64,000 nucleotides of DNA from Spirochaetota bacterium (GTDB taxonomy: Bacteria > Spirochaetota > Brachyspiria > Brachyspirales > JACRPF01), in assembly GCA_016214035.1 (NCBI GenBank), contig JACRPF010000014.1:292244-356243 (forward strand). The letters are read 5' to 3'. Shown piece after piece: positions 18,669-35,089 of the stretch; within the stretch, counting starts at the first letter, position 1, and each line of letters opens with the position of its first letter. The position numbers and the translations under genes were made by a program. The notes under the pieces are model-generated. The model worked only from the letters and a program-made list of their open reading frames with translations. It was not told where the DNA came from and did no database searches.

Positions 18669-18695
18669 CAGATGGAGGCGCTGGCCTCCCAAAAT

Positions 18696-18769
<74 letters not shown>

Positions 18770-18924
18770 TAGCGCGGGTTTCCCGCAATACAATTCTGAA
18801 TAATCAAATAGCATCCATGCGCGCACCCGGATGCGCTGCGATAGCGGGAATTCAATTTGCATATTATTTTTGTTTTATTATATTAATAATCAGCACTAGA
18901 TATCAATGGAAAACGGATGTCACC

Positions 18925-19233
18925 ATGTATACAATGAATACCGCTTTTGAAAACGAGGCGATAGTACTGCGCATCGAAGGTGAACTTTCACTGGAGCATA
19001 TTGCCGAATTTAAAACACGCGTAAAAGAGGAGATCCAAAGATCCGCCGCCACTACCGTCATCTTTGATCTCGGCGAGCTCAGTTATGTAGACTCGGCAGG
19101 AATAGGCTCGCTATTCTTCATCAAGAATATGGTCGATAAAATGGACGGCGAAATGCAGGTGAAAGCGGTATCGCCTCGCGTGCGCGAAATCATGAAAAGC
19201 TGCGGTATGCTTTCGGTTTTTAATATCACCTGA
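18925..19233 (+). CDS. STAS-domain anti-sigma-factor antagonist (SpoIIAA/RsbV-like)
   Basis: IFDLGELSYVDSAGIGSLFFIKN carries the conserved D-S-x-G phospho-serine motif. The start is trimmed to MYTMNT (18925); the track ORF starts at 18817 inside the tRNA-flanking region. Confidence 0.8.
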   Translation: MYTMNTAFENEAIVLRIEGELSLEHIAEFKTRVKEEIQRSAATTVIFDLGELSYVDSAGIGSLFFIKNMVDKMDGEMQVKAVSPRVREIMKSCGMLSVFNIT

Positions 19234-20330: not shown

Positions 20331-20531
20331 CTGCTGCTGGCAAGACCGCTTATTCACGCCGGTAGAATTATATACCTCACGACACACCTCTTTAGTGCAG
20401 ACGATAAATGCTCGATTTATTAACAGGGGTTTGCGGTTCGTTATTATGTAAACATCAGAATGCATAATTGTTTTGCCGATATTTCATTGTTTTTTATGCA
20501 ATTTCGCAGCATATCCGCGACACTCCTGTTT

Positions 20532-20547
20532 TGGCACGGAAATTGTA
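20532..20547 (+). promoter_or_regulatory. Sigma54 (-24/-12)-type promoter candidate upstream of the DUF1540 genes and the giant gene
   Basis: TGGCACggaaaTTGTa matches TGGCAC-N5-TTGC with one mismatch (GG-N10-GT). AGGAGG at 20561-20566 and the ATG at 20575 follow. Confidence 0.5.
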
Positions 20548-20574
20548 AATATATACATGAAGGAGGAACATCGT

Positions 20575-20880
20575 ATGTCAATGGGTATGCCAAATATCAG
20601 TTCGTGTGAAAATCTTGCCTGCGCATACAATTGTGATAACAAATGCAATGCGATGACGGTTATCGTGTCTGAGAACGAGGGCACGAAGTGCGATACGCAG
20701 TTCTCATCGGCGGGAAAAGCTGATCTCCTGCCGGCTGTCGGGTTCGTTGCCGCATGCTGCGTTACGGATTGCAGGTACAACAATACATTGAAGTGCAGGG
20801 CTAACGGCATACGAATAGTCCTGCGTTCCGACCACGCTGAATGCGGAACATATCTTAACGACAAGATCAAGATGGCCTGA
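20575..20880 (+). CDS. Cys-rich protein with two DUF1540-type repeats (paralog 1)
   Basis: SSCENLACAYNCDNKCNAMTVIVSENEGTKCDTQF and CCVTDCRYNNTLKCRANGIRIVLRSDHAECGTYL fit the DUF1540 pattern C-x3-4-C-x-Y-N-x4-C-x-A-x2-I-x-V...C-x-T-(F/Y). The start is chosen at 20575 (AGGAGG 8 nt upstream); the track ORF starts at 20473. Confidence 0.7.
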   Translation: MSMGMPNISSCENLACAYNCDNKCNAMTVIVSENEGTKCDTQFSSAGKADLLPAVGFVAACCVTDCRYNNTLKCRANGIRIVLRSDHAECGTYLNDKIKMA

Positions 20881-20938
20881 GTGTACCTATGCGGTTGCAG
20901 GGACCGTCGGGATGATGACCCACGTGAGGTAAGACCGT

Positions 20939-21274
20939 ATGACAATTCATATGCCAAAAATACAGAAATGCGATGACACTGCCTGCGAGTACAACCGCGA
21001 CAGAAAATGCACATCCCAAACGGTGATAATGCCTGAGGGGAACGGAGCGATATGCAAGTCGATAAATAAATCGGCGGGTAAAACGTTTTATTCTCTGCCG
21101 ATAGGGTCGATTGCCTTTTGCATTGTAAAACAATGCAGATATAACCGCGCGCTTGAGTGTACCACAAAAAACATACACATGTGTATGCATTCCGGGCATA
21201 CGGAATGCGGGACCTTTGCAGGCGAACAAACGCGGAGGCAAAGTCCGCCTGCACGAACAGAACAGGACGGATAG
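20939..21274 (+). CDS. Cys-rich protein with two DUF1540-type repeats (paralog 2)
   Basis: KCDDTACEYNRDRKCTSQTVIMPEGNGAICKSI and FCIVKQCRYNRALECTTKNIHMCMHSGHTECGTF. GAGG RBS upstream. Tandem paralog of 20575-20880. Confidence 0.7.
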   Translation: MTIHMPKIQKCDDTACEYNRDRKCTSQTVIMPEGNGAICKSINKSAGKTFYSLPIGSIAFCIVKQCRYNRALECTTKNIHMCMHSGHTECGTFAGEQTRRQSPPARTEQDG

Positions 21275-21295
21275 TACAACGAACGAGGCATAAAA

Positions 21296-24200
21296 ATGAT
21301 TCGTATCGGGGGAAATACCGGCGTAACAGCCTGCAACAGAGAAGCGGCACTACTGCCGCTCGTGATGTTTGTTGCCGCGGTGATGTCCCTGCACGGCGCT
21401 GTTGTATCATCGAACACGAACACGGGATTGACCTATACGAATATCCAATCAGCGGTGACGGCGGCGGCGGCCGGTCAGACAATCGTGGTCTTTGAAGGCT
21501 GCTACAAAGAGAATATCACGGTAAGCGCCAAAACGAATGTTACGCTCGTGTCATATGCCTATATGACGAACGGCTCACGCACCGGCGTGGTTCTTAACGG
21601 AGGATTGCTGAATGACACCATCAATCTGATACATGCCGTCTCTAACCGCGTGGCCGGGTTTACCGTAACCAACGGCAAGGATGCCGGCATACTTATCGAC
21701 GGGACATCGAAATGGAACGAAGTTGAGAATAATATCCTCTGTCTGAACAACAAGTGGGGGGCGGCGGTCAACAGCACCACCGCGGTATCGAACCGTATTG
21801 TGAGTAACGAGATATTCAGCAATAAAACGGCGAACGATGCGAATGGCGGCATTTACATCGCGGATGCCGATTATACGGTAATCGACCGTAACCTGATACA
21901 TCACAATTTCAACGCGGGGATAGTTTTTATCAACAGTGCCGTTGGTACGCTTGTGACAGGGAATATTATCGTATCGAACGCGTCATTCGGGATAATATGT
22001 AATAACGCGGCGGTGGGATATACGGAAGTCTCACAGAATACCATCGGGAACAACAGCCGGGGTTTCAATATACTGAACGGCGCGGCCGGATGGCTTATTC
22101 AGAGCAATAATATCGCGGGTAATACGACGGGTGTGTATCTCACCGAGAACGGGAATACGATACGCGGCAATAATATGATCTCAAACACTATCGGGGTAGA
22201 TATCGAAAGCGTTTCATCTACGACGAACGCCGGGAACCTTTTTCTTGCCAATGGAATTGCCATCTATATCAACGGCGGTTCCGCGAGCAGCATTGCCAAT
22301 AATATATTCACGAATAATACGAACTGCGGCGTGTATGTCCTCGGCACGGCGCTCAATCATGCAATCGAGAGCAATCTGTTCACCGCATCGGGGTCGAGTG
22401 CAATAGCGCTGACCGTCGACGGAGTCGGGTTCACGTCTATTAGAAGCAATATCATACGCGGCGGCATGTCGAACGGTATTTTCATCACATTGGCCGACGA
22501 TAATTTTATCGAATGCAACGTCATCTCAGACATGATCCAAAACGGAATTTACATCGGTTCGGGAGCGGTCAACACATCGATTTCCAACAATATAATCTGC
22601 AATACATCAAACGGGTTCAACCTTGGTGAAGGCAGCGGGGTAAAGATACTCAGAAACACGTTGAGCAACAATACAATAGGCATATATTATTTCGACAATC
22701 TGACGTTCCCGCTCACGTGGAATAACTTCACTAACAATGCACTGCATTTTACGAACACCACCGGGGCAGTTATCTGCGGGCAGACGAATTTCTGGGGAAG
22801 CATACGGCTGCCAACGGTGATGAACTCTATCGGCGGCATCATCGATACGAATCAATACGTGCCGTATCGTCTGGGTTTCGTAGGTACAGCGCAGCCGGAC
22901 ATCACGCCGCCGCCGGTTCCGTCGTTTACAGCTGGCGAGAACAGAACGAACAGTATCGTATTGCGCTGGACGAACAGCGCGGCAGATATCGGCGGCTATC
23001 GAATATACCGCGCGTTCTCGGATACATGGACGAACTTCACTACGTACTATGCAGACATTCCGACAGACTTGACCACGATGTGCTGGACGGACACAGCCGT
23101 TGATACGAATTTCACGAATTTTTATTTCGTTACCGCGTATGACACGAACACCAACGCCGGGCAGTTCATCAATGAAAGCTGGTTCAGTGAATCGTATTAC
23201 GTTTCAATGCCTGTCTGGAATACCAATACGGGCGTAAAATACCGGACGATACAGACTGCGGTGGACGCGGCTGGCAGCGGTCATACCATCGTAGTTTTTG
23301 ACGGTATTTTTAAGGAAAACGTGGTTCTCTCCAACATGAATGTAACGCTCGCCGCATATTCTTTTCTCACAAACGGCAATCGGGCAGGCGTTATAATCGA
23401 CGGCAGCCTGACCGCAGCGGGGATCAGAGTTAGAAACGGACTATCAAACCGCGTCATCGGTTTTTCCGTCACTAATGGAAAAGACGCAGGTATCATGGTC
23501 GACGGGGCGTCGGCATATAATTCAATAGAAAACAATGTGGTGTATTTAAATAATAAATGGGGAATAAACATAAACGGGAAAACAGCGTTCAGTAACCGCG
23601 TCGTCAGCAATGAAGCATACAGTAATATCACCGCGGCCGATGCCGACAGCGGCATTCAGATAAAGGACGCCGATTATACCGTTCTCTACCGGAACTATAT
23701 CCATCACAACCTGAATTCCGGTATTGTCCTCACCGGCGCAGCAACCAACAGTATCATCCTTGAAAACACTATTGCCTCGAACCTGTCATATGGATTTTAT
23801 TGCAATAACTCCGGCGCGGGGTACACGGAGATCATCAGCAACACCATCGTCGGCAACATCAACGGCATCTATATACTCGCGGGAACCGCCGGTAAGCTGA
23901 TTGTAAGCAATAGCATATATCTGAACACTGCCGGTATTTATCTCGGTGAAGATTTCAATACAATCCGGCACAATACCATATATTCAAACACATACGGAAT
24001 TCAGATAAACACGGCAACGTATAACACCAATGACGGCAACATTTTTTTCGCGAACGCCACGGGCATCATTTCAGCAAATGCCGTCACGGGAAATATATTC
24101 CGGAGCAATCTGTTTTCCAACAACTTGGACAACGGCATGTATCTGGCGGGCAGTGGCACCGGCATAAAGGCACTTAACAACAGCTTCATAACAACCGGAA

Positions 24201-27200
24201 CGAATGCATTCACGCTTGCGGTTGCAGCAGTCACGGTACAAAGCAATACATTTGAAGGTGTCGGCACGAACGGCATATTCATCACCGCAACGACGGCTGT
24301 CATCAACGACAATATCATCAAAGCCGCTGCGAGTAACGGAGTTTTTGTAGCCGCTAACGCAAATGTCCCGCTCATCTCCAATAATATCATCTGCAATGCG
24401 AGCAACGGAATTCAACTCAACGAAGGGACTACGGCGAAATTGATATGCAACACGATTAGCAATAATACGATAGGCGTCTACTATACGGACACATTGACGT
24501 TCATGCTGAACTGGAATAATTTTTCCAACAATTCGCTTCATTTCTCAAATGCGGCGGGGGCCACATTCACCGGCCAGACGAATTATTGGAGCAGCATCAC
24601 ATTGCCGATAGTGACAAGCAAAATCGGCGGCGTGACGAATACCAATGTCTATGTGCCCTACCGGCTTGGGTGGATGGGCACTTCACAGGCGGATATGCTA
24701 CCGCCCAACAGGCCGGTATTCACCAATGCAATAAGTACGAATTCCGGTGTGGCATTATGTTGGACGAATAACGGATCGGACATCGGTGGATACAGGATAT
24801 ACCGTTCATTCACCAACACCTGGACGAACTTCACAACATATTATGCTGATATTCCGACAACGGCAACCGCACTGTCATGGGTCGACACGAACGCAAGTTC
24901 GAACATGACGAATTACTATTTCGTGACCGCATATGACAGGAATACCAATACCGGACAGTGTATCAATGAAAGCTGGTTCAGCGCATCGTCCACAAACGGC
25001 ATTCGGCTCACACCGGCAATATGGGTGGAGGGCATTACGCCCACGGCGCTGTCGTGGATCAACAGTTCACCGATTACCTTCAGCGGAATGGCAAGCACAA
25101 CGAACGGCTATCTTGTCAGTGTCTATTTCAGCACCAACGCCACGAGCGGTTATGGTTTGGTAACAGGCACCACGAACTGGACGACGAATTTCGACGTGAG
25201 TGCATTCCCCGTAACAAATGTAATTTATCTCGTGGTGAGCAACAGCGCGGGCAAAGTATTGTCGAATTTCCAAACGAACTATATCGACCTGAGCGCACCG
25301 CTTACCGGGATAACAAATCTCATTGCCGGAACCATTGTCGGCGGGACAATCACCATACGCGGAACGAATATGGACGTGCAGTCGGGCATACAGGAAACGG
25401 TGATAACGATCACGAACACCAATGGGACCATGGTATTTATTGACGGGCTTCAGAACGGCAATGAGTTTTCGAACTATTGGGACACAACGGGTGTGGATGA
25501 TGGCGCATACTATGTCTATGCGGCTTCAATAAACGGAGCCGGCGGCGCCGCAAACTCCGCAAGCACAAGGCTTATCGTGAACAATATCGCGCCGCAGATC
25601 GCACAGACCAATATCGCTCAGTTCGCTACAAAAAGCGGCGTTTTGGCGTTCAAAGGTTATGCGATGAACTCGGCGGCAGTGCTTGATCCGCCGGCGGTAT
25701 ATTTCAAGACGAATGGCGGCACATTCGCGCTCGTGACGAACGGCACAATTTTCACAACGAATATAAACAGCACTACGCACCCTGACGGTACGAACGTATT
25801 CGAGTTTATTACGGTATCGTCGAATTTTAAGACGAATTATTTCTCTCAGACGAACATCATCGACAACAGTGTTCCTTATGCGGCGGTTACCAATATTATG
25901 AGCGGCAGCGTTATCAGCAACACCGTGACATATTATGGCACAAACTATGAAAATCTGTCCAGCATAATGGCTTTGATGCTGTATACCAACGGCGCGCTCT
26001 ATACCTGGACAAATACGACTCCCGCGTTCGAGTTGACATTGGACACACTTTTGATCCAAAATGGAATGCTCGCGCTCTCGTTAATCGTATCGAACGGCGT
26101 TGGGCTTACATATACTAATCATTTCACGAACTATATTACCAATGGCAGCGCTCCGTTCACGGGCATTACGAATCCGGCACCGCTTACGTGGATAACGAAT
26201 ACGCCGGTATCGGTTGAAGGGTATGCCAGCAACATTTTCGGTCAGATGTCGGCAATATTTTTCAGCACGAACGCGACAACGGCATATGCGCATACTGGCG
26301 GCACGACCACGAATTGGACAACGAACGTAGATGTAACCGGTTTTCCGGTTACAAACATATTCTATGTGGTTGCAAGCAACGAATTCTATTTCAATGCAAC
26401 GAACAGACAGACGAATTATGTGGACTTGAGCCCTCCGAATGCAAATATTACAAACCTCGAGATCGGCGCAATAATCGGGGGTTCCATGACGCTCCGGGGA
26501 ACGAACATCGATATACAGTCCGGCATTACGGCAACATGGATCATCATCTCAAATGAAATCGGGTTGACGACGAATCTCCCGGGGCTCCAGAACGGTATTG
26601 AATTCACTAATATATGGAATACCACAGGCACGGCTGACGGCGTGTATTATGCGAGTATACTATCGTCGAACGGGGCTGGTATTGAAACGGATACGGCAGG
26701 CAGAATGTTTATCGTCAATAATATCGCGCCAATAATAACGCAAACAGATATAGCGCAATTAACGACCAATACCGGGACGATAGCGTTTGCCGGATATGCA
26801 ACGAATATCGCATGGGCCTTAGACCCACCGGCAGTATATTTCAGGACAAACGGCGGCACGTTCGCGCTGGTGGCGAACAGTGTGTTTTTCACGACGAACA
26901 TAGACTCTTCGATACTTCCCGACGGTACGAATGCATTTGAATTCATGGCGGTATCGTCGAATTATAAAACGAATTACTTTTATCAAACCAACATCATCGA
27001 TAACAGCGCGCCATATGCGTGTATTACGAACATTACCGCCGGCCAGATAGTCGGCGGGATTATAACGATACGCGGAACGAATGCCGACCTGTTTTCGGGC
27101 ATATATAACACGAGGATTATCGTCACGAATGCCGGCGGGGCTGTAACGAATATCGCGGGGATGCAGAACGGCGTAGAGTTCACAAATAGCTTGAGCACGG

Positions 27201-30200
27201 CCGGCATCACCGACGGCAAATATTACGTTTATGTAACCGTTACAAACGGCGTCGGAATAGGAACAAACACCGCGAGCACGATGTTCGTTGTGAACAATCT
27301 CGCACCGATAATCGCGCAAACGAATATTGCGATGTTGACGACAAACCGGGGCGTACTATCATTTCAAGGTTACGCTACGAATATCGTATCGTTACTCGAT
27401 CCTCCGGCGATATACTTCAAAACGAACGGCGGCAATTTGGCACTGATGACAAACGGCACGGTATTCACGACGAACATCAATAGCGCTGTCCTTCCCGACG
27501 GCTCCAACTCGTTCGAATTCATCGCCGTGTCTTCAAACTACATGACCAATACGTTCTATCAGACAAATATTATCGATAATAGCGCGCCGTTTGCGGCGGT
27601 AACGAATTATGCCAACGGATGCACGATCAGCAATACCGTTGTCTATCGCGGCACGAATTACGAGAATGTATCCGGCGTTACCGCGACGATGCTGTACACG
27701 AACGGCGCGTTCTATGCATGGACGAATACAACACCGGCGTTTGAATTTTCAATCGACGCTTTGTTTTTCCGTAACGGCGTGCTTCCGATATCCATTATCG
27801 TATCGAACGAGGTAGGCCTTACGTATACAAATAATTTCACGAACTATGTGACCAACGGCAGCACACCGTTTGTGGGGATAACGAATCCATCGCCGGTAAC
27901 GTGGATAACGAACGATACAATTACCTTCGAGGGTTACGCAAGCAATACCATGGGCCAGATGACGGGGGTATTTTTCAGCACGAACGCGGTATCGGGATAT
28001 GCGCCTGCGGGAGGCACCACCACGAATTGGACGACGAACGTAACGGTTACCGGTTATCCGGTGACGAACGTTTTCTATGTCGTGGCAAGCAATGAATTTT
28101 ACTTCGCTACAACGAATAAACAGACAAACTATGTGGACCTCAGTGCGCCGGTTGCGGACATCACCAACATTACCGCCGGGCTGATTTTCGGCGGGACGCA
28201 TACGATACGCGGCACGAATGTTGATGCGCAATCGGATATTATGGTAACACGCATCATCGTCACAAATGCGGCGGGAGCGGTGACGAATATCACGGGGCTA
28301 CAAAACGGTGTTGAGTTTACAAATAACTGGGACACGACGGGTGTCGCTGACGGCAGGTTTTTTGCATACGTAACAGCAACTAACAACGCGGGTCTCGGCA
28401 CGAACACCACTAGCGTTCAGTTCATCGTGAACAATCTCGCACCGGTGATAGCTCAGACGAATATCGCGATGATGGCGACAAACCGCGGAATGATGTCGTT
28501 CATCGGTTATTCGACGAACATAGCAAACGTCATCGATCCGCCGGCGGTCTATATGGCGACGAACGGCGGCGCGTTTGCTCTCATTACCAACGGCACGGGA
28601 TTTACGACGAATGTCAACAGCACAACGCTTCCCGACGGGACGAACGCATTCGAGTTCATTGCGGTTTCATCGAACGGCAATACGAATCATTTCTATCAAA
28701 CGAATATCATCGACAACAGCCCCCCCTATGCGGCGGTGACGAACTATGTAAACGGCAGCGTGATAAGCAATTCGATAACATATCGCGGCACGAATTATGA
28801 AAACATCTCCGGCGTAACGGCGATGATGCTGTACACGAACGGTGCGTTCTTTGCATACACCAACACATCGCCTGGATTTGAGTTCACGATGAATACCAGC
28901 GTTTTCCTGAACGGCATGCTCCCGCTGACACTTGTCGCATCGAACGGCGTGGGGTTGACGTATACAAATTACATTACTAACTATATCACAAACGGCAGCG
29001 CTCCATTCGTCGCAATAACAAACCCGGCACCTATGACATGGATAACGAATAACACTATATCCATACAAGGGTATGCAAGCAATCTTTCCGGACAGATGAC
29101 TGGCATATTTTTCAGCACGAATGTGACGGGCGGTTACGCGACTGCGGGCGGGACCACTACGAACTGGACGACGAACGTGACCGTCACCGGATTCCCCATC
29201 ACGAACGTATGGTATGTCGTCGCGAGCAACGAATATTATTTTGTGACCACGAACTGCCGGACGAACTTTGTGGACCTCAGCGCACCTGCCGCCGGAATAA
29301 CCAATATCACTGCGGGACAGATCATCGGCGGGACATATGTCTTCCGCGGCACGAATATGGATGTACAGTCGGGCATTGCATCCACGAGAATGATAGTCAC
29401 CAATACCGGAGGCATTGTTACGAACATAACCGGGCTTCAGAACGGCGATGAGTTCACGAATAGCTGGAATACGACCGGTGTGGCGGACGGCACATACTTC
29501 ATATATCTGATATCCACAAATACTGCCGGCATTGGAACGAACACCGCAGGCATTGCATTCATCGTGAATAATCTCGCGCCGGTGATAACTCAGACAAACA
29601 TCGCGGAACTTACGACGAACACGGGCACTCTTGCCTTCATCGGTTATGCGACGAACATTTCAAGTATCGTCGATCCTCCGGCGGTGTACCTGGCGACGAA
29701 CGGCGGCGCGTTTGCGCTTGTGACCAACGGGACCGGCTTTACGACAAACTTCAACAGCACCTCCCTGCTTGACGGCACGAATGTATTTACATTTGCGGCG
29801 GTATCATCAAACAACAGGACGAACTTTTATTATCAGACGAACGTCATCGACAACAGTATCCCGTTCGGTGCGCCGACAAATAATTTCAACGGCGCCACGA
29901 TTGCATCAACCATTGTCATTACGGGCACGAATTACGAAAACATCTCGGCGATAACGGCAAACGTACTCTTCACCAACGGGGCATTTTTCGCGTGGACGAA
30001 TACGTCTCCGTGGGAATTTACATTCGATTCAAGGCTGTTTACGAACGGGTTGTTGAAACTTGCCCTTGTAGTTTCCAACGGCGTCAATCTCGTATATACC
30101 AACGTGTGGACGAATTATGTGTCGAATGTAATTGTGGCATCGAATACCAACACGGGGACTACCTATACAACGATTCAGAATGCGGTAACAGCCGCCGGCG

Positions 30201-33200
30201 ATGGTCATACCGTTGTCGTTTTTGCGGGCGCCTACACGGAGAATCTGCTGATATCCGGCAAAACGCGATTCTCGCTGATATCGCACGTGTTTCTCGCCAA
30301 TAGTAATCGTGACGGTGTCGTGCTTGACGGTAACAATAATGCCGAAACGATTAAAATAGATAGTTGTGTATCGAATCGGATTATCGGATTTACCTGTATA
30401 AACGGGAAGGAAACCGGCATTTATATAACGGGGACGTCTTCCTACAACAGAATTGATAATAACATCGTACGGAATAATGAAAGATGGGGGATAAATATCT
30501 TCAGCAAACTAGCGCGCTATAACCTAATAACAAGCAATGAGGTTTATAGCAATACCACCGCATCCGAAAATAATTGCGGCATTCTGATCAACGACGCCGA
30601 TTATTCCGAGCTTTACAAAAATAGTATTCATCATAATGGAAATTCCGGCATCCTTATTGCCGGCAATGCGACAAACAGCAGCATACACGAAAACATTATT
30701 AACTCGAATGTATCCTACGGTTTCCTGTGCAACACCGGCGCGGCAGGTTACACTGAAATTGTTACGAATACTATCGTCGGCAATATACAAGGCGTCGATA
30801 TACTTAATGCGGGTGTCGGAATGGTTGTCGCGAGCAATAATATTTGCCTTAACTCGACAGGCATCTTGATCAACACTCCTTTCAATGCAATTCGAAACAA
30901 CTTCATTTATTCAAACGGATGCGGCGTCGATATAGAAAGTACTTCGTCGGTAAGTAACGACGGTAATATGTTTTTTGCTAATGGGACCGGTATAAAACTG
31001 AATGGAGGCTCCGCGAATATCTTCCAGAACAATATTTTATCAAGCAATACGAATTGTGGCATCTATTGCCTTGGATCCGGAAATAACAATCTGATTCAAA
31101 GCAACCGGTTCGACACTACCGGATCGAACGCGATATCGATTATCGACAACGGCATGGACTTTACGTATGTGAGGAGTAATGTTATCTACGGCGCCATGTC
31201 CAACGGGATTTATGTCGTTATGGCCGATAACAGCCTCATTGAAAATAACATTATCTCGGCGACGGCACCCAATGGCGTTTTCATCGGCGCAACGGCGGAC
31301 AATACAACGATTTCCAACAACAGTATATACAGCGCCACAAGGGGCATCTCTTTGAGTGAAGGTAACGGAGCGAACGTTTCGTGTAACACGCTCAGCAACA
31401 ATACGATAGGCCTGTATTATGACGGTGCTTCGACGCTTTTGCTGAAGCTGAATAACCTGACCAATAATACGCTTCATTTTTCAAATGTCGCCGCGGCGAC
31501 AATAACTGCTCAAACGAATTACTGGGGGACCATAAGACTGCCTGTGATAATGAATTCAATCGGGGGTGTGACGGCTACCAATCAGTATGTTCCCTACCGC
31601 CTCGGGTGGGTCGGTACCGCACAGGCAGACATGACGCCCCCGAATCGTCCGGTATTCACCAATGCCTCGAATATTGGTGCCGGCGTGGTGCTTCATTGGA
31701 CAAATAATGGAACGGATATCGGAGGATATAGGATTTACCGCGCATATACGAATACTTGGACAAATATCACGACATTTCTGGCCGATATTCCGACAACCGC
31801 AACAGCCATGTGCTGGACGGATGCAAACGCAAGCACGAATATGACGAATTACTATTTCGTAACCGCCTATGATACAAACACCAATGCCGGGCAATACATC
31901 AATGAAAGCTGGTTCAGCGCGGGCTCAGCAAACGGCGTACGGCTTATTTCGACGGTAACAGTTTCGATAACGAATCCGGCAGCGATAACATGGATAACTA
32001 ACAATCCGGCGTATTTCGCAGGATTATCGAGCAATACGTTCGGCCAGATCACGGCGATATATTTCAGCACCAACGCTACGACGGGTTTTGCACTTGCCGG
32101 AGGAACGACGACGAACTGGACTACGAACGTGACGGTTACCGGTTTTCCGGTGACGAACGATTTCTATGTCGTTGCGAGCAATGAATATGGATTTGTTGCC
32201 ACGAACCATCAGACAAATTATGTGGATCTGAGCGCGCCGGATGTCGGTATTACAAACATAACGGCGGGACAAATTATAGGCGGAACATTCACCTTTCGCG
32301 GAACGAATATTGACACTCAATCGGACATATTGGCAACACGCATCATGGTGACAAACGTTGGCGGCAACGTCACCAACATCATTGGTTTGCAAAACAGCAT
32401 TGTGTTCACGAACAACTGGAATACGGCCGGTGTCTCTGACGGCATGTACTATGCGTATATTTCAGCCACGAACGGTGCGGGCATCGGGACGAATACCACG
32501 AGTGTTCAGTTTATCGTAAACAATGTGGCGCCGGTAGTCGCTCAGACAAACATTGTTCAATACGCTACCAATCGTGGCTTGATAGCGTTCATCGGATATG
32601 CCACGAATACCGCATCAGTACTCGATCCTCCGGCGGTATATTTTAAGACGAACGGAGGTGTGTTTGCGCTGGTTACAAACCATACCGTATTTACGACAAA
32701 TGTTGACACCACTACCCTGCCTGACGGAACCAATTCATTCGAAATAATAGCAGTATCGTCGAACTTCAAAACTAATGCATGCTATCAGACCAATATCATA
32801 GACAACAGCGCGCCGTTTGCGGCAGTTACCAATTACGTGAACGGCAGCATAATCAGCAATACGATAACATATCGCGGAACAAATCACGAGAATGTATCCG
32901 GCATAACGGCGATGATGCTGTACACGAACGGTGCGTTCTTTGCATACACCAACACATCGCCTGGATTTGAGTTCACGCTGAATACCGGAGTGTTCCTGAA
33001 CGGCATGCTCCCGCTGACACTTGTAGCGTCGAATGGCGTGGGGTTGGCGTATACAAATTACTTCACCAATTACATCACGAACGGCAGCGCTCCGTTCGTC
33101 GCAATAACTAATCCGGCACCTTTGACATGGATAACGAATAACACTATATCCATACAAGGGTATGCAAGCAATCTTTCCGGCCAGATCACGGCAATATATT

Positions 33201-35089
33201 TCAGCACCAACGCTACGATTGGCTTTGCTCCCGCCGGCGGCATAACGACGAACTGGACTACGAACGTGACGGTTACCGGCTTCCCGGTTACGAACGTCTT
33301 TTATGCTGCAGCAAGCAATGAATATTATTTTGTGACGACCAACTGCCAGACGAACTTTGTGGACCTCAGCGCGCCCGCTGTCAGCATCACAAACATTACC
33401 GCTGGGCAAATTATCGGCGGCATGTATACGATACGCGGCACGAATATGGATGCGCAAAGCGGAATAGCGGCAACAAGGATAATAATCACCAACGCCGGCG
33501 GTATAGTGACGAATATCGCAGCATTACAGATTGGCGATGAGTTCACGAATAACTGGAATACAACCGGTGTTTCTGACGGCAGATATTTCGCATATATGTC
33601 TTCCACGAACAGTGCGGGCATCTATACGAACACCGCAAGTACGACGTTCATCATCAATAACCTTGCGCCCATGATTGCACAGACGAATATCGCGCAGTAT
33701 GCCGCGAAAGCCGGCTCAATCATGTTCATCGGATATGCCACAAATGCCGCATCAGTACTCGACCCTCCGGCGGTATATTTCAAAACGAACGGTGGTACAT
33801 TTACACTGATAACGTACGGCACAATATTCACGACAAATGTCGACAGCACCACGCTGCCTGACGGCACTAATATATTCGAATTCATCGCGGTATCATCGAA
33901 CTACAGGACAAACCGCTTCTATCAGACAAACCTTATTGACAACAGCATCCCGTTCGTGTCTATAACCAATAGTGTAAACGGCGGCACGGTGAGCAACACC
34001 GTCACATACACCGGAACGAACTACGACAATGTCACCGGCATAACGGTAGTACTCTATACAAACGGCGCGTTCTATGCTGAAACAAACACATCGCCATCAT
34101 TTATATTTATGCTTGACACTACATTATTCACAAACGGCATGCTCGTGCTCAGCTTTGTTGCTACAAACTCCGCGGGACTTGTCTTCACGAATAACTTCAC
34201 GAACTATGTGTCGAATAATGTAACACCGTCGGCAGCGATTACCAATCTTGCGAACGGCTCATGGATAACCGCAACACCGGCAACTGTTTGCGGGACGGCA
34301 GCGGCGCCATTTGGAAGCATCACTGCCGTGTATATAAGCACCAATGCGTCAGCCGGATATGCGGCTGTTTCAGGTACGACAGCATGGACAACCAATCTCG
34401 ATGTGTCACTGTTCCCGGTAACAAACGCGGTATACACGGTTGCGGTAAGCAGCATGGGATATGCGGTGACGAATGTGCAGACGAATTATATCGATCTTAC
34501 ACCGCCCGCGGCGTGTATCACCAATATGATTTCAGGGATTCATGTATCCGATACGATATCCGTACGGGGAACTAATTATGATGCGGAATCATCCATTGCA
34601 TCCACACATTTCATTATCTCAAATACCGCGGGTCTCATCACCAATATATACACCGCTGTATCCGGAAATGACTGGAGTGTCTCGTGGAATACACGCTCAG
34701 TCTCCAACGGCGTATATGCGTTCATCGTCCGGTCAATAAATGGCGCCGGGGCCGTCTATTACGCTCCGGCGATAACGATAACGGTAACCAATCACACGTT
34801 CCATGACGACGGCCGGTTTGTTATCGCCCCGAACCCGTATCGTCCGAACTCAAAGAATCGTCGGCAGGGCGGCGGACTGCCCTATGTTATCGTAGCCGGG
34901 GTGCCGCCGTCGTTTACACTTGAGATCTATGCCGTGGACGGTCAGATGGTTGATAAAAAAACGGATGCGATGGGCGTTGAGGGAAGATATCAGTATGAAA
35001 TACCTTCGCGATTAGCCACCGGCATTTATCTTGTGCGGATAAAGAACGGTACTTCGGAAAAAACCACAAAGTTGACGGTGATACGATGA
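21296..35089 (+). CDS. Giant (4,597 aa) secreted beta-helix / FN3 / Ig-like repeat surface protein with T9SS-type (FlgD-Ig-like) C-terminal sorting domain
   Basis: Single uninterrupted ORF. Signal-peptide-like N-terminus (ALLPLVMFVAAVMSLHG/AVV). Three NosD/pectate-lyase-like parallel beta-helix modules, each followed by an FN3-like unit. 28 Ig-like ~95-aa domains. C-terminal IAPNPYRPN...GIYLVRIKNG...KLTVIR. Confidence 0.9.
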   Translation: MIRIGGNTGVTACNREAALLPLVMFVAAVMSLHGAVVSSNTNTGLTYTNIQSAVTAAAAGQTIVVFEGCYKENITVSAKTNVTLVSYAYMTNGSRTGVVLNGGLLNDTINLIHAVSNRVAGFTVTNGKDAGILIDGTSKWNEVENNILCLNNKWGAAVNSTTAVSNRIVSNEIFSNKTANDANGGIYIADADYTVIDRNLIHHNFNAGIVFINSAVGTLVTGNIIVSNASFGIICNNAAVGYTEVSQNTIGNNSRGFNILNGAAGWLIQSNNIAGNTTGVYLTENGNTIRGNNMISNTIGVDIESVSSTTNAGNLFLANGIAIYINGGSASSIANNIFTNNTNCGVYVLGTALNHAIESNLFTASGSSAIALTVDGVGFTSIRSNIIRGGMSNGIFITLADDNFIECNVISDMIQNGIYIGSGAVNTSISNNIICNTSNGFNLGEGSGVKILRNTLSNNTIGIYYFDNLTFPLTWNNFTNNALHFTNTTGAVICGQTNFWGSIRLPTVMNSIGGIIDTNQYVPYRLGFVGTAQPDITPPPVPSFTAGENRTNSIVLRWTNSAADIGGYRIYRAFSDTWTNFTTYYADIPTDLTTMCWTDTAVDTNFTNFYFVTAYDTNTNAGQFINESWFSESYYVSMPVWNTNTGVKYRTIQTAVDAAGSGHTIVVFDGIFKENVVLSNMNVTLAAYSFLTNGNRAGVIIDGSLTAAGIRVRNGLSNRVIGFSVTNGKDAGIMVDGASAYNSIENNVVYLNNKWGININGKTAFSNRVVSNEAYSNITAADADSGIQIKDADYTVLYRNYIHHNLNSGIVLTGAATNSIILENTIASNLSYGFYCNNSGAGYTEIISNTIVGNINGIYILAGTAGKLIVSNSIYLNTAGIYLGEDFNTIRHNTIYSNTYGIQINTATYNTNDGNIFFANATGIISANAVTGNIFRSNLFSNNLDNGMYLAGSGTGIKALNNSFITTGTNAFTLAVAAVTVQSNTFEGVGTNGIFITATTAVINDNIIKAAASNGVFVAANANVPLISNNIICNASNGIQLNEGTTAKLICNTISNNTIGVYYTDTLTFMLNWNNFSNNSLHFSNAAGATFTGQTNYWSSITLPIVTSKIGGVTNTNVYVPYRLGWMGTSQADMLPPNRPVFTNAISTNSGVALCWTNNGSDIGGYRIYRSFTNTWTNFTTYYADIPTTATALSWVDTNASSNMTNYYFVTAYDRNTNTGQCINESWFSASSTNGIRLTPAIWVEGITPTALSWINSSPITFSGMASTTNGYLVSVYFSTNATSGYGLVTGTTNWTTNFDVSAFPVTNVIYLVVSNSAGKVLSNFQTNYIDLSAPLTGITNLIAGTIVGGTITIRGTNMDVQSGIQETVITITNTNGTMVFIDGLQNGNEFSNYWDTTGVDDGAYYVYAASINGAGGAANSASTRLIVNNIAPQIAQTNIAQFATKSGVLAFKGYAMNSAAVLDPPAVYFKTNGGTFALVTNGTIFTTNINSTTHPDGTNVFEFITVSSNFKTNYFSQTNIIDNSVPYAAVTNIMSGSVISNTVTYYGTNYENLSSIMALMLYTNGALYTWTNTTPAFELTLDTLLIQNGMLALSLIVSNGVGLTYTNHFTNYITNGSAPFTGITNPAPLTWITNTPVSVEGYASNIFGQMSAIFFSTNATTAYAHTGGTTTNWTTNVDVTGFPVTNIFYVVASNEFYFNATNRQTNYVDLSPPNANITNLEIGAIIGGSMTLRGTNIDIQSGITATWIIISNEIGLTTNLPGLQNGIEFTNIWNTTGTADGVYYASILSSNGAGIETDTAGRMFIVNNIAPIITQTDIAQLTTNTGTIAFAGYATNIAWALDPPAVYFRTNGGTFALVANSVFFTTNIDSSILPDGTNAFEFMAVSSNYKTNYFYQTNIIDNSAPYACITNITAGQIVGGIITIRGTNADLFSGIYNTRIIVTNAGGAVTNIAGMQNGVEFTNSLSTAGITDGKYYVYVTVTNGVGIGTNTASTMFVVNNLAPIIAQTNIAMLTTNRGVLSFQGYATNIVSLLDPPAIYFKTNGGNLALMTNGTVFTTNINSAVLPDGSNSFEFIAVSSNYMTNTFYQTNIIDNSAPFAAVTNYANGCTISNTVVYRGTNYENVSGVTATMLYTNGAFYAWTNTTPAFEFSIDALFFRNGVLPISIIVSNEVGLTYTNNFTNYVTNGSTPFVGITNPSPVTWITNDTITFEGYASNTMGQMTGVFFSTNAVSGYAPAGGTTTNWTTNVTVTGYPVTNVFYVVASNEFYFATTNKQTNYVDLSAPVADITNITAGLIFGGTHTIRGTNVDAQSDIMVTRIIVTNAAGAVTNITGLQNGVEFTNNWDTTGVADGRFFAYVTATNNAGLGTNTTSVQFIVNNLAPVIAQTNIAMMATNRGMMSFIGYSTNIANVIDPPAVYMATNGGAFALITNGTGFTTNVNSTTLPDGTNAFEFIAVSSNGNTNHFYQTNIIDNSPPYAAVTNYVNGSVISNSITYRGTNYENISGVTAMMLYTNGAFFAYTNTSPGFEFTMNTSVFLNGMLPLTLVASNGVGLTYTNYITNYITNGSAPFVAITNPAPMTWITNNTISIQGYASNLSGQMTGIFFSTNVTGGYATAGGTTTNWTTNVTVTGFPITNVWYVVASNEYYFVTTNCRTNFVDLSAPAAGITNITAGQIIGGTYVFRGTNMDVQSGIASTRMIVTNTGGIVTNITGLQNGDEFTNSWNTTGVADGTYFIYLISTNTAGIGTNTAGIAFIVNNLAPVITQTNIAELTTNTGTLAFIGYATNISSIVDPPAVYLATNGGAFALVTNGTGFTTNFNSTSLLDGTNVFTFAAVSSNNRTNFYYQTNVIDNSIPFGAPTNNFNGATIASTIVITGTNYENISAITANVLFTNGAFFAWTNTSPWEFTFDSRLFTNGLLKLALVVSNGVNLVYTNVWTNYVSNVIVASNTNTGTTYTTIQNAVTAAGDGHTVVVFAGAYTENLLISGKTRFSLISHVFLANSNRDGVVLDGNNNAETIKIDSCVSNRIIGFTCINGKETGIYITGTSSYNRIDNNIVRNNERWGINIFSKLARYNLITSNEVYSNTTASENNCGILINDADYSELYKNSIHHNGNSGILIAGNATNSSIHENIINSNVSYGFLCNTGAAGYTEIVTNTIVGNIQGVDILNAGVGMVVASNNICLNSTGILINTPFNAIRNNFIYSNGCGVDIESTSSVSNDGNMFFANGTGIKLNGGSANIFQNNILSSNTNCGIYCLGSGNNNLIQSNRFDTTGSNAISIIDNGMDFTYVRSNVIYGAMSNGIYVVMADNSLIENNIISATAPNGVFIGATADNTTISNNSIYSATRGISLSEGNGANVSCNTLSNNTIGLYYDGASTLLLKLNNLTNNTLHFSNVAAATITAQTNYWGTIRLPVIMNSIGGVTATNQYVPYRLGWVGTAQADMTPPNRPVFTNASNIGAGVVLHWTNNGTDIGGYRIYRAYTNTWTNITTFLADIPTTATAMCWTDANASTNMTNYYFVTAYDTNTNAGQYINESWFSAGSANGVRLISTVTVSITNPAAITWITNNPAYFAGLSSNTFGQITAIYFSTNATTGFALAGGTTTNWTTNVTVTGFPVTNDFYVVASNEYGFVATNHQTNYVDLSAPDVGITNITAGQIIGGTFTFRGTNIDTQSDILATRIMVTNVGGNVTNIIGLQNSIVFTNNWNTAGVSDGMYYAYISATNGAGIGTNTTSVQFIVNNVAPVVAQTNIVQYATNRGLIAFIGYATNTASVLDPPAVYFKTNGGVFALVTNHTVFTTNVDTTTLPDGTNSFEIIAVSSNFKTNACYQTNIIDNSAPFAAVTNYVNGSIISNTITYRGTNHENVSGITAMMLYTNGAFFAYTNTSPGFEFTLNTGVFLNGMLPLTLVASNGVGLAYTNYFTNYITNGSAPFVAITNPAPLTWITNNTISIQGYASNLSGQITAIYFSTNATIGFAPAGGITTNWTTNVTVTGFPVTNVFYAAASNEYYFVTTNCQTNFVDLSAPAVSITNITAGQIIGGMYTIRGTNMDAQSGIAATRIIITNAGGIVTNIAALQIGDEFTNNWNTTGVSDGRYFAYMSSTNSAGIYTNTASTTFIINNLAPMIAQTNIAQYAAKAGSIMFIGYATNAASVLDPPAVYFKTNGGTFTLITYGTIFTTNVDSTTLPDGTNIFEFIAVSSNYRTNRFYQTNLIDNSIPFVSITNSVNGGTVSNTVTYTGTNYDNVTGITVVLYTNGAFYAETNTSPSFIFMLDTTLFTNGMLVLSFVATNSAGLVFTNNFTNYVSNNVTPSAAITNLANGSWITATPATVCGTAAAPFGSITAVYISTNASAGYAAVSGTTAWTTNLDVSLFPVTNAVYTVAVSSMGYAVTNVQTNYIDLTPPAACITNMISGIHVSDTISVRGTNYDAESSIASTHFIISNTAGLITNIYTAVSGNDWSVSWNTRSVSNGVYAFIVRSINGAGAVYYAPAITITVTNHTFHDDGRFVIAPNPYRPNSKNRRQGGGLPYVIVAGVPPSFTLEIYAVDGQMVDKKTDAMGVEGRYQYEIPSRLATGIYLVRIKNGTSEKTTKLTVIR
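21401..23212 (+). other. Beta-helix + FN3-like module 1 of the giant protein (approximate bounds)
   Basis: Opens with SSNTNTGLTYTNIQSAVTAAAAGQTIVVFEGCYKENITV, followed by ~22-aa beta-helix turns. The FN3-like part starts near 22895 (PDITPPPVPSFT...LRWTN...GGYRIYR...FYFVTAYDTNTN). Confidence 0.7.
23213..25020 (+). other. Beta-helix + FN3-like module 2 (approximate bounds)
   Basis: Opens with VWNTNTGVKYRTIQTAVDAAGSGHTIVVFDGIFKENVVL. The FN3-like part starts near 24689 (ADMLPPNRPVFT...LCWTN...GGYRIYR...YYFVTAYDRNTN). Paralogous to modules 1 and 3. Confidence 0.7.
25021..30127 (+). repeat. Ig-like domain array 1: 18 tandem ~284-nt (~95-aa) coding repeats of four subtypes (order ABCD-ABC-BCD-ABCD-ABCD)
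   Basis: Hand parsing of the translation. Subtype A: ITNPAP.TWITN...FFSTNAT...TNWTTNV.VTGFPVTN. B: ITNITAGQIIGG...RGTN.D.QSGI. C: IAQTNIA...GYATN...LDPPAVYFKTNGG. D: AAVTNY.NGS.ISN...YRGTNYEN. Domain linkers are (S/I)AP-x3-4-TN. Confidence 0.8.
30128..31950 (+). other. Beta-helix + FN3-like module 3, embedded in the middle of the Ig-like stalk (approximate bounds)
   Basis: Opens with VIVASNTNTGTTYTTIQNAVTAAGDGHTVVVFAGAYTENLLI. The FN3-like part starts near 31625 (ADMTPPNRPVFT...LHWTN...GGYRIYR...YYFVTAYDTNTN). Confidence 0.7.
31951..34790 (+). repeat. Ig-like domain array 2: 10 tandem ~95-aa coding repeats (ABCD-ABCD-AB)
   Basis: Same four subtypes as array 1. The first eight domains are a copy of 27878-30127 at a constant +4,089-nt offset. 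Confidence 0.8.
34810..35086 (+). other. C-terminal sorting domain (T9SS type-A / FlgD-Ig-like CTD)
   Basis: GRFVIAPNPYRPNSKN...FTLEIYAVDGQMVDKK...GRYQYEIPSRLATGIYLVRIKNGTSEKTTKLTVIR. Shows the PNP-x-x-P start, an alternating beta pattern, G-(I/V)-Y-(L/F)-V and a terminal K-x-x-V-I-R, as in Por_Secre_tail / FlgD_ig C-terminal domains. Confidence 0.6.

What the first reader, a model, noticed from the sequence alone, without database searches (positions are those of the whole stretch)
20461..21295. Sigma54-type promoter and two tandem double-DUF1540 Cys-rich genes directly upstream of the giant gene
Positions 20532-20547 read TGGCACggaaaTTGTa. That is the sigma54 pattern TGGCAC-N5-TTGC with one mismatch. 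AGGAGG (20561-20566) and the ATG (20575) of the first of two tandem paralogs follow closely. Each paralog (101 and 111 aa, about ten Cys, no signal peptide) carries two DUF1540-type units. Examples are SSCENLACAYNCDNKCNAMTVIV...KCDTQF, CCVTDCRYNNTLKCRANGIRIV...ECGTYL, KCDDTACEYNRDRKCTSQTVIM and CIVKQCRYNRALECTTKNIHM...ECGTF. The giant gene starts 21 nt after the second paralog. I see no hairpin or U-tract in the 58-nt and 21-nt gaps, so a single sigma54-driven transcript is the simplest reading. Upstream, TGCATAA (20461-20467) and TTATGCA (20494-20500) form a 7-bp inverted repeat. It encloses two ATTGTTTT direct repeats (20467-20474 and 20486-20493), a candidate activator or IHF region. DUF1540 has no assigned function. 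I am not aware of a described link to giant surface proteins.
Basis: partly seen in the sequence, partly recalled or inferred. Interest (0 to 1): 0.6.

Follow-up and report, generated by a model that had tools for sequence, protein, structure and literature searches.

The report
Two DUF1540 genes before giant gene
Two small cysteine-rich genes of a widespread but uncharacterised family (DUF1540) sit just upstream of a 4,597-residue secreted-protein gene, but the proposed sigma-54 promoter is only a candidate and the pairing with the giant gene is not seen anywhere else, so this is a mostly ordinary locus.

Summary
Both small ORFs (101 and 111 aa) hit Pfam DUF1540 twice each, above the gathering score. 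NCBI already names one of them "DUF1540 domain-containing protein".

They are divergent sister copies, a lineage-specific tandem duplication. They belong to a large family of about 97-aa double-DUF1540 proteins: 280 cluster representatives, more than 1,500 proteins, mostly from anaerobes.

In ten independent family loci the gene is single-copy and never lies next to a giant or T9SS cargo gene. Its neighbours recur around two-component regulators and oxidative-stress, redox and metal genes.

The sigma-54 motif matches 10 of 11 consensus bases, but the mismatch is the C of the -12 GC. Matches this good are expected by chance in the window (4.75 at one mismatch or fewer; 1 observed). Only its placement, 28 nt before the ATG, makes it credible. 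A sigma-54 activator gene lies 32 kb away. A sigma-70-like site and read-through are rival sources of transcription. The upstream repeats are not significant.

Co-transcription with the giant gene is plausible: gaps of 58 and 21 nt and no terminator. The giant gene is a T9SS type-A cargo, with a PorV/PorQ-family gene downstream.

Verdict: new members of a known uncharacterised family. Interest is low to moderate.

The parts
20420..20447 (+). Sigma-70-like candidate promoter, TTAACA-16-TATTAT (10 of 12). It is a rival to the sigma-54 reading.
   Evidence: One such site was found in 20200-21500 against 2.2 expected in shuffles, so it is not significant on its own.
20461..20500 (.). A 7-bp inverted repeat, TGCATAA / TTATGCA, enclosing two ATTGTTTT direct repeats. 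It lies about -97 to -58 from the start site that the sigma-54 motif would imply.
   Evidence: Searches give the coordinates. One search shows that shuffles give the inverted repeat in 43% of trials, the direct repeat in 14% and both in 6%.
20532..20547 (+). Sigma-54-type -24/-12 candidate, TGGCACGgaaaTTGTa. GG is present at -24. GT replaces GC at -12.
   Evidence: The consensus TGGCACG-N4-TTGC is taken from PMC3224663.
20561..20566 (+). Shine-Dalgarno AGGAGG, 8 nt before the ATG at 20575.
   Evidence: NCBI's shorter model (97 aa, start at 20587) would put it 20 nt away. The family consensus also begins about 4 residues before the 'MP'.
20575..20880 (+). DUF1540 paralog 1, 101 aa. It has two Cys4 units (C11, C16, C24, C39 and C61, C66, C74, C90) plus extra C20 and C62.
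   Evidence: The AlphaFold2 model is all-beta, with pLDDT 88.7.
20939..21274 (+). DUF1540 paralog 2, 111 aa. It has the same eight Cys plus C82, and a 17-residue C-terminal extension.
   Evidence: 39% identity to paralog 1, E = 3e-27; sister to paralog 1 in a neighbour-joining tree of 150 family members.
21296..35089 (+). Giant gene, 4,597 aa. It has an N-terminal hydrophobic signal-like segment, nine right-handed beta-helix/NosD stretches, long internal repeats and a C-terminal T9SS type A sorting domain.
   Evidence: Beta_helix 1.2e-48, NosD 2.4e-35; TIGR04183, 31.2 bits against a cut-off of 23.
21280..21308 (+). Small RNA hairpin covering the GAGG and AUG of the giant gene.
   Evidence: -8.0 kcal/mol, z = -2.4, with 6 of 200 shuffles folding as well. 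This is weak.
38025..39365 (+). PorV/PorQ-family outer-membrane protein gene, downstream of the giant cargo gene.
   Evidence: NF033709, 101.9 bits against a cut-off of 90.
53156..54607 (-). Response-regulator-type sigma-54 activator (Response_reg + Sigma54_activat + HTH_8), with GAYTGA in place of GAFTGA. It shows that the genome uses sigma-54, but it lies 32 kb from the site.
   Evidence: Sigma54_activat 1.8e-56. The translation shows GAYTGA.

Best explanation
The locus holds two diverged tandem copies of an ordinary, widespread and uncharacterised small protein. This protein is about 97 aa, has no signal peptide, and is built from two DUF1540 units. Each unit carries four invariant cysteines spaced C-x4-C-x7-C-x14/15-C.

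I infer that each unit holds a metal centre (zinc or iron) through its four thiolates, and that the proteins act as small metal- or redox-linked stress proteins in an anaerobe.

The two genes lie on the same strand as a 4,597-aa T9SS cargo gene, 58 and 21 nt apart with no terminator. They are therefore probably transcribed together with it. This adjacency is a lineage-specific arrangement, not a conserved functional module.

Transcription may start at the sigma-54-type site 20532-20547. I rate that at about 0.4. It may equally start at a sigma-70-type site further upstream, or come from read-through.

Shown: gene identities, family membership, the duplication, the lack of synteny elsewhere, and the T9SS nature of the giant gene. 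Inferred: metal binding, the stress role, co-transcription and the choice of promoter.
For: Family membership:
- DUF1540 hits lie above the gathering score, with two stretches per protein.
- Full-length matches to 280 cluster representatives and 1,572 proteins. These come from Omnitrophica, Nitrospirota, Desulfuromonadales and Desulfocurvibacter.
- Six Cys are invariant and two more are 90% or more conserved across 150 members. 233 of 238 members of 88-112 aa carry two Cys4 units.

Fold:
- With the 150-sequence alignment the AlphaFold2 model is confident and all-beta (pLDDT 88.7, pTM 0.79). This is a folded protein, not a peptide precursor.

Duplication:
- The two copies are sisters in a neighbour-joining tree.
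- Both lack the near-invariant G32 and G59 of the family.

Stress, redox and metal theme in neighbours:
- Ferredoxin plus rubrerythrin directly upstream (L004/L005).
- A ferritin / desulfoferrodoxin / rubredoxin-type / HSP20 / YHS island (L017).
- Universal stress protein upstream (L015).
- ArsP_1/NicO transporters (L013).
- The order RR(AraC)-HK(GAF)-RR-DUF1540 occurs twice (L002, L017).
- A Deinococcus DUF1540 gene is radiation-induced, and its authors suggested metal binding (PMC4007540).

Operon:
- Same strand, gaps of 58 and 21 nt, each gene with its own GAGG-type ribosome-binding site, and no terminator.

Sigma-54 candidate:
- 10 of 11 consensus bases with correct spacing, and the -12 element lies 28 nt from the ATG.
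- It is the best PWM score in the window.
- Only about 0.04 chance sites of that score are expected in promoter-competent DNA.
- An activator gene is present in the window.
Against: - No metal, redox or expression data exist for any member of this subfamily.
- The neighbourhoods are heterogeneous. The remaining contexts are contractile-tail or prophage clusters (L001, L018), an rRNA methylase (L010), a lone gene (L011) and contigs too short to read (L006-L008).
- In Firmicutes, DUF1540 is tied to spores: the CdeA exosporium protein (PMC7677010) and an endospore-correlated domain (PMC2955703). That would point to a structural, disulfide-linked role instead.
- The sigma-54 mismatch is at the C of the -12 GC.
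- The motif is not enriched over chance in the window.
- No activator gene is adjacent, and the upstream repeats are not significant.
- Only one other family locus (L015, TGGTGTGCGGTTTGCA at -39, 11.6 bits) has anything similar upstream.
Confidence: 0.6

Rival explanations
1. A sigma-54 promoter at 20532-20547, driven by an enhancer-binding protein bound at the 20461-20500 repeats, makes one transcript. That transcript covers both DUF1540 genes and the giant gene, and the DUF1540 proteins are functional partners of the giant surface protein.
For: - The motif and its spacing are as described.
- It has the best PWM score in the window and a promoter-competent position.
- The window encodes a sigma-54 activator.
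- The gaps are short and terminator-free.
- The repeats lie at about -97 to -58, a plausible enhancer distance.
Against: - The -12 element reads GT, not GC.
- Matches are not above chance window-wide.
- The repeats are not significant.
- The activator gene is 32 kb away, paired with its own kinase.
- None of ten family loci pairs DUF1540 with a giant or T9SS cargo gene, and none is duplicated.
- The DUF1540 proteins lack a signal peptide, so they would not meet a secreted cargo outside the cell.
Confidence: 0.15
2. The three genes are transcribed from a housekeeping-type promoter (TTAACA-16-TATTAT at 20420-20447), or by read-through from the GGDEF gene that ends at 20330. The TGGCAC...TTGT string is a chance match.
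For: - A 10-of-12 sigma-70-like site exists.
- No terminator-like site follows the GGDEF gene on the + strand.
- Chance sigma-54-like matches are expected in the window.
- Several family loci show clear TTGACA-type promoters upstream of their DUF1540 gene: L011, L018 and L010.
Against: - The sigma-70-like site is itself no better than chance (1 found against 2.2 expected).
- It would give a leader of about 120 nt with no recognised RNA element.
- The placement of the sigma-54-like site just ahead of the ribosome-binding site would be a roughly 4% coincidence at that score.
Confidence: 0.45
3. The DUF1540 proteins are structural, disulfide-cross-linked surface-layer components like the Clostridioides difficile exosporium protein CdeA. 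On this view they would be assembled together with the giant surface protein.
For: - CdeA carries a DUF1540 domain and sits in the exosporium (PMC7677010).
- The domain correlates with endospore formers (PMC2955703).
- The neighbour here is a surface or secreted giant.
Against: - Neither paralog has a signal peptide or a T9SS sorting domain.
- The organism is not a spore-former by any sign in the window. The SpoIIE-domain genes here are HAMP-linked or stand-alone PP2C-type phosphatases.
- The family's other contexts are cytoplasmic stress and redox genes.
Confidence: 0.07

Closest known systems
Pfam PF07561 (DUF1540), specifically the roughly 97-aa double-DUF1540 proteins of anaerobic bacteria, e.g. 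the Desulfocurvibacter africanus protein P0235 and the Omnitrophica protein P0153
   Same: - Same length class.
- Two units per protein, with the same eight cysteines and the same spacing.
- Conserved Y-N after the second Cys and T after the fourth.
- No signal peptide.
- Full-length alignment.
   Different: - Here there are two tandem copies. Every other locus examined has one.
- Both copies have lost the near-invariant G32 and G59, and they carry extra cysteines.
- They are about 30-43% identical to other members.
- The downstream neighbour is a giant T9SS cargo gene, which is seen nowhere else.
CdeA (CD2375), the cysteine-rich exosporium protein of Clostridioides difficile
   Same: It carries a DUF1540 domain and is small and cysteine-rich (PMC7677010).
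   Different: CdeA belongs to a spore layer of a Firmicute. The window shows no sporulation machinery. I did not align CdeA with these proteins, so the comparison rests on the shared Pfam domain only.
Deide_05260, the radiation-induced DUF1540 protein of Deinococcus deserti
   Same: It is a small DUF1540 protein with four conserved cysteines. It is stress-induced, and its authors suggested metal binding (PMC4007540). This fits the stress and redox neighbourhoods found here.
   Different: The organism is an aerobe. I did not check its domain count or its sequence relation to the window proteins.
Canonical sigma-54 (-24/-12) promoters, consensus TGGCACG-N4-TTGC
   Same: TGGCACG is matched exactly, the spacing is right and TTG is present. 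The site sits just upstream of a ribosome-binding site.
   Different: - T replaces the C of the -12 GC.
- No adjacent enhancer-binding-protein gene.
- No significant upstream activator site.
- No experimental start site.
T9SS type A cargo proteins with a neighbouring PorV/PorQ-family gene (this applies to the giant gene, not to the DUF1540 genes)
   Same: The C-terminal TIGR04183 domain and a PorV/PorQ-family neighbour both score above their cut-offs.
   Different: - The size is exceptional (4,597 aa), with beta-helix modules and long internal repeats.
- NCBI labels the source a Spirochaetes MAG, outside the phyla where T9SS is best known. That last point is my own knowledge, not a test.

Membership tests
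Pfam PF07561 DUF1540 | HMM score at or above the gathering score (22.1 bits) | tested here: met
   34.1 bits for ORF1 and 28.3 bits for ORF2, with two matched stretches each.
Pfam PF07561 DUF1540 | Four conserved cysteines per unit | tested here: met
   C11, C16, C24, C39 and C61, C66, C74, C90 are present in both paralogs. They are invariant or 90% or more conserved in 150 family members.
Double-DUF1540 proteins of about 97 aa | Full-length collinear match to other members | tested here: met
   The profile of the two paralogs matches representatives over positions 1-94, with E down to 7e-19. There are 1,572 hits with the 40-sequence profile.
Double-DUF1540 proteins of about 97 aa | Near-invariant non-Cys residues (N19, G32, T41, V58, G59, N69, A76, T92) | tested here: inconclusive
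   N19, N69 and T92 are kept in both. G32 and G59 are replaced in both copies. T41, V58 and A76 are kept only in paralog 1. These are divergent members.
Sigma-54-dependent promoter | GG at -24 and GC at -12, separated by the canonical spacing | tested here: not met
   GG and the spacing are present, but the -12 element reads GT (TTGT) instead of GC (consensus from PMC3224663).
Sigma-54-dependent promoter | Match stronger than chance | tested here: inconclusive
   Window-wide it is not: 1 observed against 4.75 expected, and 72% of random sequences reach the PWM score. By position it is suggestive: 0.04 to 0.16 chance sites are expected in upstream intergenic DNA. The PWM was built by me from memory of the consensus and is only approximate.
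Sigma-54-dependent promoter | The genome encodes sigma-54 (rpoN) and an enhancer-binding protein | tested here: inconclusive
   An enhancer-binding-protein gene is present at 53156-54607 (Sigma54_activat 1.8e-56), with GAYTGA instead of GAFTGA. rpoN itself is not in the window, and the rest of the genome could not be fetched.
Sigma-54-dependent promoter | rpoN- and activator-dependent transcription start about 12 nt downstream of the -12 element | not testable with these tools
   This needs 5'-RACE or dRNA-seq, and mutants.
Operon of DUF1540 x2 plus the giant gene | Same strand, short gaps, no intrinsic terminator | tested here: met
   Gaps of 58 and 21 nt. There is no + strand terminator-like site in them, and the gap folds are unremarkable.
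Operon of DUF1540 x2 plus the giant gene | Gene order conserved in other genomes | tested here: not met
   Ten independent family loci have no giant or T9SS cargo neighbour and no tandem copy. Orthologs of the giant gene were not retrievable, so close relatives remain untested.
T9SS type A cargo (giant gene) | C-terminal type A sorting domain above the curated cut-off | tested here: met
   TIGR04183 scores 31.2 bits against a cut-off of 23 on the last 150 aa. Pfam Por_Secre_tail on the whole protein scores only 19 bits, below its cut-off of 27.
CdeA-like exosporium protein | Spore-former context and export to a spore layer | not tested
   No sporulation-specific gene was recognised among the window ORFs scanned. 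CdeA itself was not aligned.

The most novel reading that the evidence does not exclude
In this lineage a duplicated and diverged pair of cytoplasmic Cys4 (metal or redox) DUF1540 proteins has been recruited into a sigma-54-controlled operon with a 4,597-aa T9SS cargo gene. The pair would couple a redox or metal signal to production or export of the giant surface protein. This would be the first functional context for DUF1540 outside spores.
Probability: 0.08. Interest if true: 0.5.

Novelty: new member of a known kind. Interest (0 to 1): 0.25.

Why it matters
For this locus the stakes are small. The two genes are already recognisable and annotated as DUF1540 proteins. The promoter call is an untested candidate, and the link to the giant gene is not conserved.

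The wider by-product is more useful:
- The double-DUF1540 protein of about 97 aa is a large, well-conserved family of anaerobes.
- Its predicted all-beta fold is confident and has no match among solved structures.
- It has eight invariant cysteines.
- Its neighbours recur among oxidative-stress, metal and two-component genes.

That gives a concrete, testable hypothesis, a metal- or redox-linked stress protein, for a domain that has carried no function since it was defined.

Tried and rejected
**Searches for related loci**
- Back-translated scans of the species-representative genomes found nothing, either with the paralog alignment or with the giant N-terminus.
- The metagenome scan with the giant N-terminus returned one remote 834-aa beta-helix protein (32% identity over 188 residues). 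It has no DUF1540 gene nearby.
- The word-indexed protein search with paralog 1 found only itself.
- With the whole giant protein that search timed out. With the giant's first 640 aa nothing scored.
- Looking up the window's own contig failed. So rpoN and the rest of the genome could not be examined.

**Structure**
- The first AlphaFold2 run, with 40 sequences, was unusable (pLDDT 42). The 150-sequence run was good.
- The AlphaFold-database library was unavailable.
- The family profile matches no PDB sequence.

**Spurious or empty results**
- The weak Pfam SEHBP hit on paralog 2 (E = 0.035) is to a human microprotein family. I dismissed it.
- Rfam finds no RNA element in 20250-21400.
- The antisense ORFs over the DUF1540 genes (20484-21482 and 20867-21241, both on the - strand) have no family support.

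**Alternative promoter reading**
- I considered TTGGCA (20531-20536) as a sigma-70 -35 box paired with TATACA (20552-20557). The spacer is 15 nt, outside the usual 16-18, so I rejected it as weak. This was read by eye.

**RiPP-precursor reading**
- I rejected a peptide-precursor reading of the Cys-rich ORFs. The family folds confidently, and no maturation enzyme is adjacent in the window.
Full report
**1. Observation**

- TGGCACGGAAATTGTA lies at 20532-20547.
- AGGAGG lies at 20561-20566 and the ATG at 20575.
- ORF1 is 20575-20880 (101 aa) and ORF2 is 20939-21274 (111 aa).
- A 4,597-aa ORF runs from 21296 to 35089.
- The gaps between the genes are 58 and 21 nt.
- The inverted repeat TGCATAA/TTATGCA and the two ATTGTTTT copies are where stated.
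- The paralogs have 10 and 9 cysteines.

**2. The small genes**

Both proteins hit Pfam DUF1540 with two stretches each, above the gathering score: 34.1 and 28.3 bits against 22.1. NCBIfam has no model for them. They are 39% identical to each other over 99 residues, E = 3e-27.

NCBI already calls ORF1 [quoted passage not shown], on a 399,539-bp contig. NCBI's start is four codons later.

An exhaustive HMMER search with the two-paralog profile found 280 cluster representatives with E of 0.001 or less. Nearly all are 90-105 aa and match end to end. A profile of 40 of them found 1,572 proteins in the larger database, named from Omnitrophica, Nitrospirota, Desulfuromonadales and Desulfocurvibacter africanus.

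Across 150 members six cysteines are invariant and two more are at least 90% conserved. So are N19, G32, T41, V58, G59, N69, A76 and T92. Of 238 members of 88-112 aa, 233 carry two C-x4-C-x6-8-C-x10-20-C units.

The window's two proteins are each other's sisters in a neighbour-joining tree of the 150 sequences. Both have lost G32 and G59. They are therefore a lineage-specific tandem duplication that has since diverged.

**3. Fold**

AlphaFold2 with 40 sequences failed (pLDDT 42). With 150 sequences it gave a confident all-beta model, pLDDT 88.7 and pTM 0.79.

**4. Neighbourhoods elsewhere**

I read ten independent loci of the family. The gene is always single-copy and never lies next to a giant or T9SS cargo gene.

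| Locus | Context of the DUF1540 gene |
|---|---|
| L001 | Past the edge of a phage-tail-like cluster and an S24 peptidase gene |
| L002/L003 | After RR(AraC)-HK(GAF)-RR |
| L004/L005 | After ferredoxin and rubrerythrin |
| L006-L008 | Contigs too short to read |
| L010 | After an rRNA methylase |
| L011/L012 | Alone |
| L013/L014 | Before ArsP_1 and DUF1980 permease genes, with NicO nearby |
| L015/L016 | After a universal stress protein |
| L017 | The member nearest or second nearest to paralog 1 by distance or identity. It follows RR(AraC)-HK(GAF)-RR, a YHS-domain gene and a 158-aa ORF. It is followed by RR, HSP20, CBS, ferritin/rubrerythrin, desulfoferrodoxin, ferredoxin, a rubredoxin-type protein, ferritin and DJ-1 |
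| L018/L019 | After an extracellular contractile-injection-system cluster |

The recurrent themes are two-component regulation and oxidative-stress, redox and metal genes. This agrees with the radiation-induced DUF1540 gene of Deinococcus deserti, for which metal binding was suggested (PMC4007540).

In Firmicutes the domain is instead linked to spores. It occurs in CdeA of the C. difficile exosporium (PMC7677010). It is an endospore-correlated domain (PMC2955703). It also occupies the cydX position in the ythABC cluster of Bacilli (PMC5322542). No paper in the library assigns it a function.

**5. The promoter**

The consensus is TGGCACG-N4-TTGC, with GG and GC the most conserved dinucleotides (PMC3224663). 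The site matches TGGCACG exactly, has the right spacing and has TTG. It then has T where the C of GC should be.

Statistical checks:
- TGGCAC-N5-TTGC with one mismatch or fewer occurs once in the window, where 4.75 are expected.
- With a position weight matrix that I wrote from memory of the consensus (approximate), the site is the best in the window: 14.2 bits against 12.7 for the runner-up.
- However, 72% of first-order Markov random sequences of the same size reach 14.2 bits, with a mean of 1.19 sites.
- The window has about 4.3 kb of promoter-competent upstream intergenic DNA. There, 0.04 chance sites are expected at that score, or 0.16 by the one-mismatch pattern.

The placement is the real argument for the site. 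The implied start is near 20558, which gives a 17-nt leader carrying the Shine-Dalgarno sequence.

The window encodes one response-regulator-type sigma-54 activator at 53156-54607 on the - strand, with GAYTGA in place of GAFTGA. The organism therefore almost certainly has sigma-54. That gene is 32 kb away, next to its own hybrid kinase. Nothing ties it to this site.

The upstream repeats are not significant. The 7-bp inverted repeat arises in 43% of dinucleotide shuffles, the 8-bp direct repeat in 14%, and both together in 6%.

There are two rivals. One is a sigma-70-like TTAACA-16-TATTAT at 20420-20447, 10 of 12 but itself no better than chance. The other is read-through from the GGDEF gene ending at 20330, after which no terminator is seen.

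Among the other family loci only L015 has a comparable sigma-54-like string: TGGTGTGCGGTTTGCA at -39, 11.6 bits. Several others show TTGACA-type promoters. No Rfam element lies in 20250-21400.

Weighing the placement against the -12 defect, I put the sigma-54 reading at about 0.4.

**6. Operon and the giant gene**

The three genes share a strand. The gaps have no terminator-like site, and their folds are no better than shuffles. Each gene has its own GAGG-type ribosome-binding site. Co-transcription is the default expectation for such distances. That is an inference, not a result.

A small hairpin (21280-21308, -8 kcal/mol, z = -2.4) covers the giant gene's ribosome-binding site and AUG.

The giant protein has:
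- a signal-like N-terminus (by eye);
- nine Beta_helix/NosD stretches;
- a C-terminal T9SS type A sorting domain above the NCBIfam cut-off (TIGR04183, 31.2 against 23).

Three genes downstream, 38025-39365 encodes a PorV/PorQ-family protein (NF033709, 101.9 against 90). So the giant is a T9SS cargo.

No ortholog of it could be retrieved. Synteny in close relatives therefore stays untested.

**7. Verdict**

The DUF1540 assignment and the tandem arrangement are right. The single-transcript reading is plausible. The sigma-54 promoter is a candidate with a flaw at a key position and no support beyond its placement. The suggested activator region is not distinguishable from chance. The proposed association of DUF1540 with giant surface proteins is not seen in any other locus of the family.

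The genes are new, divergent, duplicated members of a known uncharacterised family. My committed mechanism is that they are small cytoplasmic proteins whose two Cys4 units bind metal, belonging to a stress- and redox-linked family, and sitting here by lineage-specific gene order in front of a T9SS cargo gene. I hold this with moderate confidence overall. The biochemical part is inferred only from conservation and neighbourhoods.

Noticed in passing
window 21296-35089 and 38025-39365: The 4,597-aa beta-helix protein ends in a T9SS type A sorting domain (TIGR04183, 31.2 bits against a cut-off of 23). A PorV/PorQ-family gene (NF033709, 101.9 against 90) lies three genes downstream. NCBI labels the source a Spirochaetes MAG. 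That is an unusual place for T9SS parts, or else the taxonomic label is doubtful.
   Followed up: partly
window 18817-19233, 39393-40916, 45082-46515, 46927-48360: The window holds a STAS anti-sigma-factor antagonist and three SpoIIE/PP2C-domain phosphatase genes, one of them with a HAMP domain. This is an unusually dense set of partner-switching signalling parts around the giant gene. GGDEF and GGDEF-EAL genes lie at 19248-20330 and 50640-52727.
   Followed up: no
window 18427-18769: Four tRNA genes in tandem on the + strand, each 74 nt, lie about 1.8 kb upstream of the DUF1540 genes.
   Followed up: no
window 53020-53035 (- strand) and 42983-42998 (+ strand): Two other sigma-54-like strings turned up. 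TGGTCTATTTGTTGCA (10.4 bits with my rough matrix) lies between the sigma-54 activator gene and the downstream GGDEF-EAL gene. TGGAACGCCTCATGCT (12.7 bits) lies in the intergenic DNA after 42826. Both keep the -12 GC.
   Followed up: no
L002 4959-8291 and L017 3234-8327: Two unrelated metagenome contigs share the gene order response regulator (AraC-type) - GAF histidine kinase - response regulator - DUF1540. In L002 the four genes are contiguous. In L017 a YHS-domain gene and a 158-aa ORF lie between the second regulator and the DUF1540 gene, and a large island follows (ferritin, rubrerythrin, desulfoferrodoxin, rubredoxin-type protein). This may be a conserved regulatory module for the family.
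   Followed up: partly
L018 1-8291 and L001 1151-3466: In two loci the DUF1540 gene lies just beyond a contractile-tail cluster: eCIS_core, CIS_TMP and an AAA ATPase in L018; Phage_tube and Phage_TAC_7 in L001. This may be coincidence.
   Followed up: no
L015 5962-5977: TGGTGTGCGGTTTGCA lies 39 nt upstream of the DUF1540 gene of GCA_007133195.1. It has the GG-N10-GC spacing, scores 11.6 bits, and is the only other sigma-54-like site found upstream of a family member.
   Followed up: no
window 14455-15798 (- strand): A protein combines TPR repeats with a C-terminal Mrr_cat restriction-endonuclease-fold domain.
   Followed up: no
window 21296-35089: The giant protein is built of very long internal repeats. 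The beta-helix module of about 620 aa recurs at least three times, and Ig-like modules of about 400 aa recur many times with high identity (by eye). Such repeats are prone to assembly collapse or expansion in a MAG.
   Followed up: no
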